Shown here piece after piece: positions 12,550 to 13,210 of a stretch of DNA of 64,000 nucleotides (its first letter is position 1; every line of letters starts with the position of its first letter). The translations under genes were made by a program, and so were the position numbers. Under the pieces are notes generated by a model. It did not search any database. It was not told where the DNA came from and saw nothing but the letters and a program-made list of their open reading frames with translations. Location: contig NC_090374.1 in NCBI RefSeq assembly GCF_036365525.1, forward strand, positions 139,042,685 to 139,106,684, read 5' to 3'. The DNA is from Heterodontus francisci (Eukaryota).

Positions 12550-13210
12550 TTTGCATCTAAGCTGTTGCTATTTTTTGTGAAGTTTCTGTTGCTCTGTCTT
12601 CAGCCTGCTAAGATACTGCTTTTCTCAGGATGAACACTTTTGAGGCCTTGTCATTTTTGGAAAGTACTGGCACCTCATCTCGAAGAGCCAACAGACAATG
12701 CTTCAACTCATTCCTCCTTTGCCTCTCCATGACATTGTGTGTGTATCACCTCTCCTCATCCTCTGCGTCTGAAGGCCTGGGGCTCAAGATCGAGGGGGAG
12801 GAGTACTTGGCCTCTTGGAGGTACCTGTCTGTTCTGGCTCATTCTGGTGCTGGCAGTTCTCTCGAGAGCAGAGGTGAAAGCACGGCAAAGTTATGCTGTT
12901 GCTGGATTTCCAGACTCCACCGTTTGATGCTGGCCAGAGCCTGTGAGTGGGTTTCAGTCCTTGGAGATTTCCCCTTGGCAATGCTCCCCACTGCCAGCCT
13001 TTGTTTCTCAATGGTCACAACGTCAATCTCTTCTTCTGAGTCGCTGGAGCGTGAAGAAACATTGCCTGTTGGTGAAGAACTTTCACCATCTGAATTTGAA
13101 TGTTTATTCTCTTGGTGTGGTGTCTCTGAGAAGGGGCTGATACTCTCCAAACCAGAACCGCTGAGATCCTGGAAGAACTGTGACTCAATCTCAGACATCA
13201 AAGGGCTGGA
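12550..13210 (-). pseudogene. myc: Captured, intronless Myc-family coding segment (MBIII to bHLH-leucine zipper), disabled in this copy
   Basis: One frame reads FFQDLSGSGLESISP...SSDSEEEIDVVTIEK...LEIQQQHNFA...PAPE*ART...[55 protein letters not shown]. After a frameshift at ~12616 it continues [21 protein letters not shown]. These are Myc boxes and the bHLH-LZ in canonical order. Confidence 0.96.

What the first reader, a model, noticed from the sequence alone, without database searches (positions are those of the whole stretch)
12550..13210. The captured myc looks spliced and has no poly(A) or own TSD, suggesting capture by RT template switching
Seen: SSRSSDS runs directly into EEEIDVV at ~13036; the segment begins and ends inside coding sequence; no UTR, poly(A) or flanking duplication is visible; and it replaces the pol core instead of simply interrupting it. 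Known: vertebrate Myc genes have an intron just after the SDS motif preceding EEIDVV. Inference: the source was spliced mRNA copied by two template switches during LTR-element reverse transcription, not LINE-mediated retroposition or DNA capture.
Basis: partly seen in the sequence, partly recalled or inferred. Interest (0 to 1): 0.75.

Follow-up and report, generated by a model that had tools for sequence, protein, structure and literature searches.

The report
Shark retrotransposon carrying spliced myc fragment
A jumping gene in a shark swapped its own copying enzymes for a spliced piece of a myc-family growth gene and then spread to several places in the genome, a fossil example of a known gene-capture process whose copies now look dead.

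Summary
Confirmed. A 679-nt piece (13225-12547, minus strand) of mych, a fish myc paralogue (82% identical to horn-shark Mych), replaces about 800 codons (RT, RNase H, integrase) of a Ty3/Gypsy element that keeps both LTRs. The piece runs with no intron through the position (13036/13035) where zebrafish mych has a splice donor. It starts and ends inside coding sequence, with no UTR or poly(A). Both junctions sit at blocks where element and mych resemble each other (5': top 35 of 442,364 pairings; 3': top 0.2-1.2%), each block just 3' of the crossover, as minus-strand template switching predicts. Four more copies exist among Heterodontus francisci proteins, labelled 'N-myc-like', on four other contigs; 3 of 4 show the same 5' junction and 3 of 4 the same 3' junction. 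So one capture was then re-copied. The copies decay neutrally (private changes 94/666 at conserved columns, 59/425 at variable ones). The mechanism is known (Tan et al. 2016); the myc cargo, in frame with gag-protease, in a shark was not found in the papers searched. No shark parental DNA was available, so the intron and microhomologies are inferred from proteins and zebrafish.

The parts
11936..11940 (.). Target-site duplication of the whole element, left copy
   Evidence: 4 of 5 bases match 16554-16558; reading phase of the interrupted transposase agrees on both sides; a 4/5 match alone has about 2% chance
11941..12188 (-). 3' LTR
   Evidence: 87% identical to the 5' LTR over 246 columns; K2P 0.12 over 241 aligned sites
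12189..12202 (-). Polypurine tract
   Evidence: 14 purines directly before the 3' LTR
12338..12547 (-). C-terminal tail of pol, resuming at the L-R-D of the R-R-N-R-x-H-(I/L)-R motif and ending in an R-S-G-R-V-V-K-P-P motif
   Evidence: L-R-D scores in the top 3 of 2103 three-codon words against motif columns of 18 relatives; motif-to-end distance 76 aa, relatives 62-112
12529..12546 (-). 3' junction similarity block: element DNA that resembles the next mych codons in register
   Evidence: 7.0 of 12, 7.3 of 15 and 9.6 of 18 expected matches; 0.31%, 1.2% and 0.17% of null pairings reach these
12547..13225 (-). Captured mych coding fragment, 679 nt, parent residues 121-358; premature stops at 12841, 12748 and 12570, a frameshift near 12616, gaps of 3 and 7 codons
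13035..13036 (-). Exon-exon junction: position of the zebrafish mych intron, absent here
13211..13225 (-). 5' junction similarity block D-A-x-P-V, shared in frame by the pol linker and mych
   Evidence: among 87 alignable relatives D 45, A 59, P 74, V 33; rank 35 of 442,364 pairings
13226..14170 (-). [quoted passage not shown]
   Evidence: 561 library proteins match at E<=0.001
14176..14487 (-). gag, middle part (second frame)
   Evidence: tblastn of Gypsy relatives, 44-55% identity
14480..15370 (.). About 900-nt GC-rich insertion interrupting gag; limits approximate
   Evidence: gag alignments stop at 15370 and resume near 14487; internal inverted repeats; no Pfam hit in the two frames scanned and no Rfam hit
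15370..15522 (-). gag N-terminus
   Evidence: matches residues 2-52 of relatives
16286..16303 (-). Candidate primer-binding site
   Evidence: starts with TGG directly after the 5' LTR; the priming tRNA was not identified
16304..16553 (-). 5' LTR
16554..16558 (.). Target-site duplication, right copy

Best explanation
An LTR-mediated retrocopy. A spliced mych mRNA was co-packaged with the RNA of a Ty3/Gypsy element in the Heterodontus lineage. During minus-strand synthesis the RT left the element at the integrase tail, paired with mych mRNA through an imperfect block just before the stop codon, copied 679 nt across the exon junction, and returned to the element at the D-A-x-P-V block at the start of RT. 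The product kept LTRs, priming sites, gag and protease, lost RT, RNase H and integrase, and was re-copied in trans as a non-autonomous element to at least five loci. Each copy has since decayed. Shown: anatomy, mych identity, in-frame 5' join, shared junctions, neutral decay at protein level. Inferred: the intron in the shark parent, DNA-level pairing at the junctions, co-packaging, mobilisation in trans.
For: Intron position from zebrafish morpholinos; the motif is unique and directly before E-E-I-D-V-V in 11 of 11 cypriniform Mych proteins checked. 5' block rank 35 of 442,364, and 41, 47 and 145 of about 440,000 with three other shark Mych proteins; the part after D-A alone is reached by 0.14-0.20% of pairings, while the 5 residues upstream are at chance (28%). 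3' block reached by 0.17-1.2% of pairings; upstream of it the element motif scores about zero. Both blocks lie 3' of the crossover and carry the donor's version. Four more copies on four contigs other than the parent's; same 5' junction in 3 of 4, same 3' junction in 3 of 4. The copies share 8 of 13 Heterodontus-specific residues. All features match those listed by Tan et al. 2016.
Against: No shark genomic DNA could be fetched, so neither the parent's intron nor true nucleotide microhomology was seen. Element-side residues come from distant relatives (best non-chimeric one 37 of 65 identical in the linker). Window sizes were chosen after seeing the junctions, and one 3' size gave only 1.2%. 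The 3' block could instead be a few more mych codons with two changed codons. A 4-nt repeat flanks the piece. The tree did not resolve the five copies as one clade (one clade in 42% of bootstrap trees). P0285 does not show the 5' junction and P0147 ends before the 3' one.
Confidence: 0.74

Rival explanations
1. Read-through capture, as proposed for acutely transforming retroviruses: an element sat next to mych, a DNA deletion or splice joined pol to mych coding sequence, the chimeric transcript was spliced and packaged, and only the 3' junction came from a template switch.
For: Explains splicing, lack of poly(A) and loss of pol equally well; described for retroviruses in PMC4997597 and PMC4299795 (passages).
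Against: It does not predict that similarity continues 3' of the 5' crossover (x-P-V, 0.14-0.20% of pairings), nor does it need similarity at both ends.
Confidence: 0.11
2. The acceptor was an element already deleted for pol; mych was patched into the deletion point by template switches, leaving a 4-nt repeat.
For: A 4-nt direct repeat lies at 13219-13216 and 12547-12544; no close autonomous partner was among 150 library hits.
Against: A 4-nt hit is expected in 23% of random placements; the pol motif P-V continues past the repeat in mych, which this model leaves to chance; the library keeps one protein per 50% cluster, so a missing partner means little.
Confidence: 0.07
3. A LINE-made processed pseudogene inserted into pol, and a later microhomology-guided deletion removed its 3' end, poly(A), second TSD and the rest of pol.
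For: The window is full of LINE RT fragments; short 5' microhomology at LINE insertions and weak TSDs in CR1-type LINEs are recalled, not checked here.
Against: Needs two events before amplification, since the copies share both junctions; does not explain the extended in-frame 5' block.
Confidence: 0.06
4. DNA-level capture from an intronless mych gene or an earlier retrocopy.
For: The shark gene structure was not seen.
Against: Zebrafish mych has a 234-nt intron at this place (396 minus 162 bp); a same-site intron in c-, N- and L-myc is recalled.
Confidence: 0.02

Closest known systems
LTR-mediated retrocopies (Tan et al. 2016, PMC5131818; fly, mosquito, zebrafish, chicken, mouse, human)
   Same: Partial, intron-less mRNA piece replacing internal ORFs; no poly(A) or own TSD; microsimilarity at the junctions; both LTRs kept; secondary retroposition with shared switch points; sense, in-frame cargo.
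   Different: Host is a shark and the cargo a myc paralogue; neither appears in the four of eight text parts I read (supplements not read). This event is much older (copies 71-81% identical as proteins).
Maize Bs1 and human HERV-K/FAM8A1 (as described in PMC5131818)
   Same: Host exons inside an LTR element; Bs1 copies share switch points.
   Different: Single parental gene here; no sign of constraint on the cargo.
Crocodilian ERVs with captured KIT-ligand or nectin3 mRNA (PMC4299795)
   Same: Ancient multi-copy vertebrate LTR lineages carrying a host growth-related mRNA.
   Different: Those are retroviral, carry long intact ORFs and show purifying selection; this is Ty3/Gypsy, partial and neutrally decaying.
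Acutely transforming retroviruses with gag-myc fusions such as MC29 (recalled, no call)
   Same: myc-family sequence replaces pol, in frame with upstream element protein, in a helper-dependent genome.
   Different: No env was seen; the cargo lacks the first 120 residues, which hold the N-terminal Myc boxes (box labels recalled), so it should not transactivate; paralogue is mych.

Membership tests
LTR-mediated retrocopy | Host mRNA piece lacking an intron of the parent gene | tested here: met
   Against the zebrafish orthologue only
LTR-mediated retrocopy | Intron present at that site in the host's own parent gene | not testable with these tools
   No shark genomic collection is offered
LTR-mediated retrocopy | Cargo replaces part of the internal ORF | tested here: met
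   793-821 residues missing against 9 relatives
LTR-mediated retrocopy | Microsimilarity at the junctions | tested here: met
   At protein and codon-allowed level; exact nucleotide overlap not testable
LTR-mediated retrocopy | No poly(A) and no own TSD | tested here: met
   Longest A run 5; only a chance-level 4-nt repeat
LTR-mediated retrocopy | Both LTRs retained; further copies with the same switch points | tested here: met
   LTRs of the other four copies could not be seen
LTR-mediated retrocopy | Co-transcription with the element | not testable with these tools
   No expression data
Ty3/Gypsy LTR retrotransposon | LTRs, PBS, PPT, short TSD | tested here: met
   PBS is a candidate only
Ty3/Gypsy LTR retrotransposon | Domain order protease-RT-RNase H-integrase | tested here: inconclusive
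   Domains are lost in this copy; 3 of 3 full-length relatives scanned show RT, RNase H, integrase in that order. Clade within Ty3/Gypsy not tested by tree
mych orthologue group | Best matches are Mych, not Myc, Mycn or Mycl | tested here: met
   Six of the seven best hits are named mych of sharks and a ray, the other is an unnamed shark protein; best 82%. No tree with the other paralogues was built
Functional retrogene | Open frame and purifying selection | tested here: not met
   Three stops and a frameshift in the window copy; private changes 14.1% at conserved and 13.9% at variable columns, p=0.93; control gene 5/141 against 18/90
Transduced viral oncogene (v-myc type) | Infectious retroviral carrier and retained transactivation domain | tested here: not met
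   No env in the element's frames; cargo starts at parent residue 121
LINE-made processed pseudogene | Intact 3' end with poly(A) and flanking TSD | tested here: not met
   3' end falls 8 residues before the C-terminus

The most novel reading that the evidence does not exclude
The founder's in-frame gag-protease-Mych fusion released a Myc piece with DNA-binding and zipper domains but no activation domain, a natural Myc/Max antagonist carried by a non-infectious retrotransposon, and selection acted on it. One hint: the E-box-reading glutamate (MYC Glu363 equivalent) is kept only in the window copy, which is broken by stops, and is replaced by one and the same residue in all four copies annotated with open frames. 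That could mean that copies able to bind DNA were purged while a DNA-binding-dead master went on spreading. This would be a retrotransposon parallel to v-myc capture with the opposite sign.
Probability: 0.08. Interest if true: 0.85.

Novelty: new member of a known kind. Interest (0 to 1): 0.55.

Why it matters
It extends LTR-mediated gene capture to sharks and gives a dated-by-divergence, multi-copy fossil in which a myc-family mRNA replaced pol in frame, the layout recalled for gag-myc tumour viruses, but in a Ty3/Gypsy element. The two junctions show the one-sided similarity expected of minus-strand jumps, so a full set of copies would make the two-switch against read-through question testable in a vertebrate germ line. 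Practically, four 'N-myc-like' gene models of Heterodontus francisci are element-mych chimeras and would inflate myc counts in sharks. The cargo shows no sign of present function, which caps the interest.

Tried and rejected
Protein search with protease plus linker found nothing (0 of 507 candidates); the whole-library HMMER search worked. The cluster look-up for accessions of shark Mych proteins could not be made. The tree of copies and host genes was mostly unresolved and is not used as proof of one origin. A second captured gene in the 5' leader was looked for: no Pfam hit in three minus frames of 15529-16286. No tRNA gene in the window and no Rfam family in 11500-17200. A 6-nt word shared by the two junction zones is not placed like a TSD. 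Purifying selection on the cargo was tested and rejected. Two slips of mine were corrected: the 663-nt length printed is 679, and the last frame check was off by one and redone. The 677-residue size of the replaced pol came from a relative with no RNase H match and is superseded. Literature: searches found no report of this element (0 papers with Heterodontus, myc and retrotransposon; 1 irrelevant plant paper); one search timed out. Most subscription journals and repeat libraries are not covered, and supplements were not read. The bacterial genome, phage and plasmid collections were not searched as they cannot hold a shark locus; metagenome and viral contigs stayed unchecked.

Full report
Setting. 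The window is rich in LINE reverse-transcriptase fragments. On the minus strand, 16553-11941 is one LTR element: LTRs 87% identical (K2P 0.12), a polypurine tract at 12202-12189, a TGG-starting candidate primer site, and a 5-base target duplication with 4 of 5 matches inside a Harbinger-like transposase fragment (DDE_Tnp_4, E 1.3e-08). Gag, protease and the linker before RT match 561 library proteins at E<=0.001; 3 of 3 full-length relatives scanned have RT, RNase H and integrase in Ty3/Gypsy order.

The cargo has Myc_N and HLH domains. Its best matches are shark Mych proteins, led by Heterodontus francisci at 82%. It covers parent residues 121-358 at 13225-12547, 679 nt. It begins and ends in coding sequence, has no A run above 5 after its 3' end and only a chance-level 4-nt flanking repeat (1151 of 5000 random placements). 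Against 9 full-length relatives 793-821 pol residues are missing. The window copy is broken by stops at 12841, 12748 and 12570 and a frameshift near 12616.

Splicing. PMC2323570 (two passages read) gives a morpholino against a zebrafish mych splice donor. Its target reads S-D-S plus one base, then GT. PMC3958507 (ten passages read) gives an overlapping morpholino and products of 162 and 396 bp, so a 234-nt intron. In 11 of 11 cypriniform Mych proteins checked the matching motif occurs once, directly before E-E-I-D-V-V; I did not identify the zebrafish protein itself among the hits. The window has the same codons with no interruption at 13036/13035. The shark parent's intron was not seen; the inference rests on the orthologue.

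5' junction. The pol linker and mych join in frame. Of 149 non-chimeric library hits, 87 align up to the junction; they read D (45), A (59), a variable residue, P (74), V (33). Shark Mych reads D-A/V-x-P-V at the same point. Scored against column frequencies of the 38 relatives of 600 residues or more, this pairing ranks 35 of 442,364; three other shark proteins give 41, 47 and 145 of about 440,000. The part after D-A alone is reached by 0.14-0.20% of pairings, while the five residues upstream are at chance (28%), as is upstream DNA (44-79%).

3' junction. Mych similarity breaks after K-F. From 12547 the element frame reads L-R-D, in the top 3 of 2103 words against the R-R-N-R-x-H-(I/L)-R columns of 18 relatives, at a normal distance from the end of pol. 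The element DNA after the break still resembles the next mych codons in register: 7.0 of 12, 7.3 of 15 and 9.6 of 18 expected matches, reached by 0.31%, 1.2% and 0.17% of null pairings. These use codon-allowed bases, and the window sizes were chosen after the fact. The alternative, that a few more codons are mych with two codons changed, is not excluded. The mych frame closes 13 codons after the junction.

Polarity (inference). Minus-strand synthesis runs 3' to 5' along RNA, so the new strand must pair with the acceptor just 3' of each crossover and keeps the donor's letters there. Both blocks lie on that side: the 3' block has the element's version and the 5' block the mych version.

One capture, many copies. 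The library held P0147, a 299-residue open frame with the same linker-mych join, 75% identical to the window. A second search returned 10 proteins from 105 candidates, four of them labelled by their source 'N-myc proto-oncogene protein-like [Heterodontus francisci]', on contigs of 214.6, 142.0, 98.4 and 137.2 Mb; the mych gene is on one of 103.5 Mb. Three of the four show the 5' junction; P0285 starts in another frame and does not. Three of four read K-F-S at the 3' junction where the gene reads K-F-E, and two run on into element tail motifs; P0147 ends before it. The five copies are 71-81% identical to each other and 80-83% to the gene, and share 8 of 13 residues where H. francisci differs from all five other sharks. 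So the capture happened once on the Heterodontus branch, and the window is probably from that genus (inference). The tree itself is unresolved (copies form one clade in 42% of bootstraps).

No selection on the cargo. Private changes fall on 94 of 666 conserved and 59 of 425 variable column-copies (p=0.93); the living gene shows 5 of 141 against 18 of 90 (p=7e-05). The four database copies are biased towards open frames, yet look neutral too. The cargo lacks the first 120 residues. The glutamate of the His/Glu/Arg E-box motif (PMC10437117, one passage) is present in the window and in 9 of 9 host genes checked, and replaced identically in 4 of 4 other copies. That points to a later master lineage; whether it was selected is unknown.

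Comparison. PMC5131818 (parts 1-4 of 8 read: abstract, introduction, results, most of the discussion; supplements not read) describes this class: partial intron-less cargo replacing internal ORFs, microsimilarity at 25 of 29 fly junctions, both LTRs kept, re-copying with shared switch points, 5 of 7 zebrafish cases. PMC4299795 (12 passages) reports crocodilian ERVs with captured mRNAs under purifying selection. PMC4997597 (3 passages) states the read-through model. The likeness to gag-myc viruses such as MC29 is recalled. Searches (listings only) found no report of this family.

Verdict. It is a new member of a known kind, notable for its cargo, host and copy number, and dead as far as protein evidence shows. 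What stays open without shark DNA: the parent's intron, exact microhomologies, myc-free deleted copies and total copy number.

Noticed in passing
window 11894-11940 and 16554-17036: The element sits inside a Harbinger-like transposase fragment (DDE_Tnp_4); the reading phase agrees across the 5-base target duplication.
   Followed up: partly
window 14480-15370: About 900-nt GC-rich insertion with hairpins and 38-nt repeats interrupts gag; no Pfam hit in two frames scanned, no Rfam hit, no second copy in the window.
   Followed up: partly
window 32033-32215 (+): A related LTR-like stretch, 80-81% identical to the element's LTRs, apparently solo and lacking the first part of the LTR.
   Followed up: partly
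P0147, P0283, P0284, P0285: Gene models labelled N-myc-like in Heterodontus francisci are Gypsy-mych chimeras; all four have lost the E-box-reading glutamate.
   Followed up: yes
window 15530-16285: An A-rich leader of about 750 nt between primer site and gag; no Pfam match in three minus frames.
   Followed up: partly
window 16542-16549: The 5' LTR has about 8 extra bases near its outer end compared with the 3' LTR.
   Followed up: no
window 6606-8096 (+): A 496-codon open LINE reverse-transcriptase frame, 81% matched by an inverted copy near 20900-22130.
   Followed up: no
PMC3958507: Zebrafish mych is a Pou5f1 target with maternal and zygotic mRNA in early embryos; if true in sharks it would put the mRNA where heritable capture can happen.
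   Followed up: no
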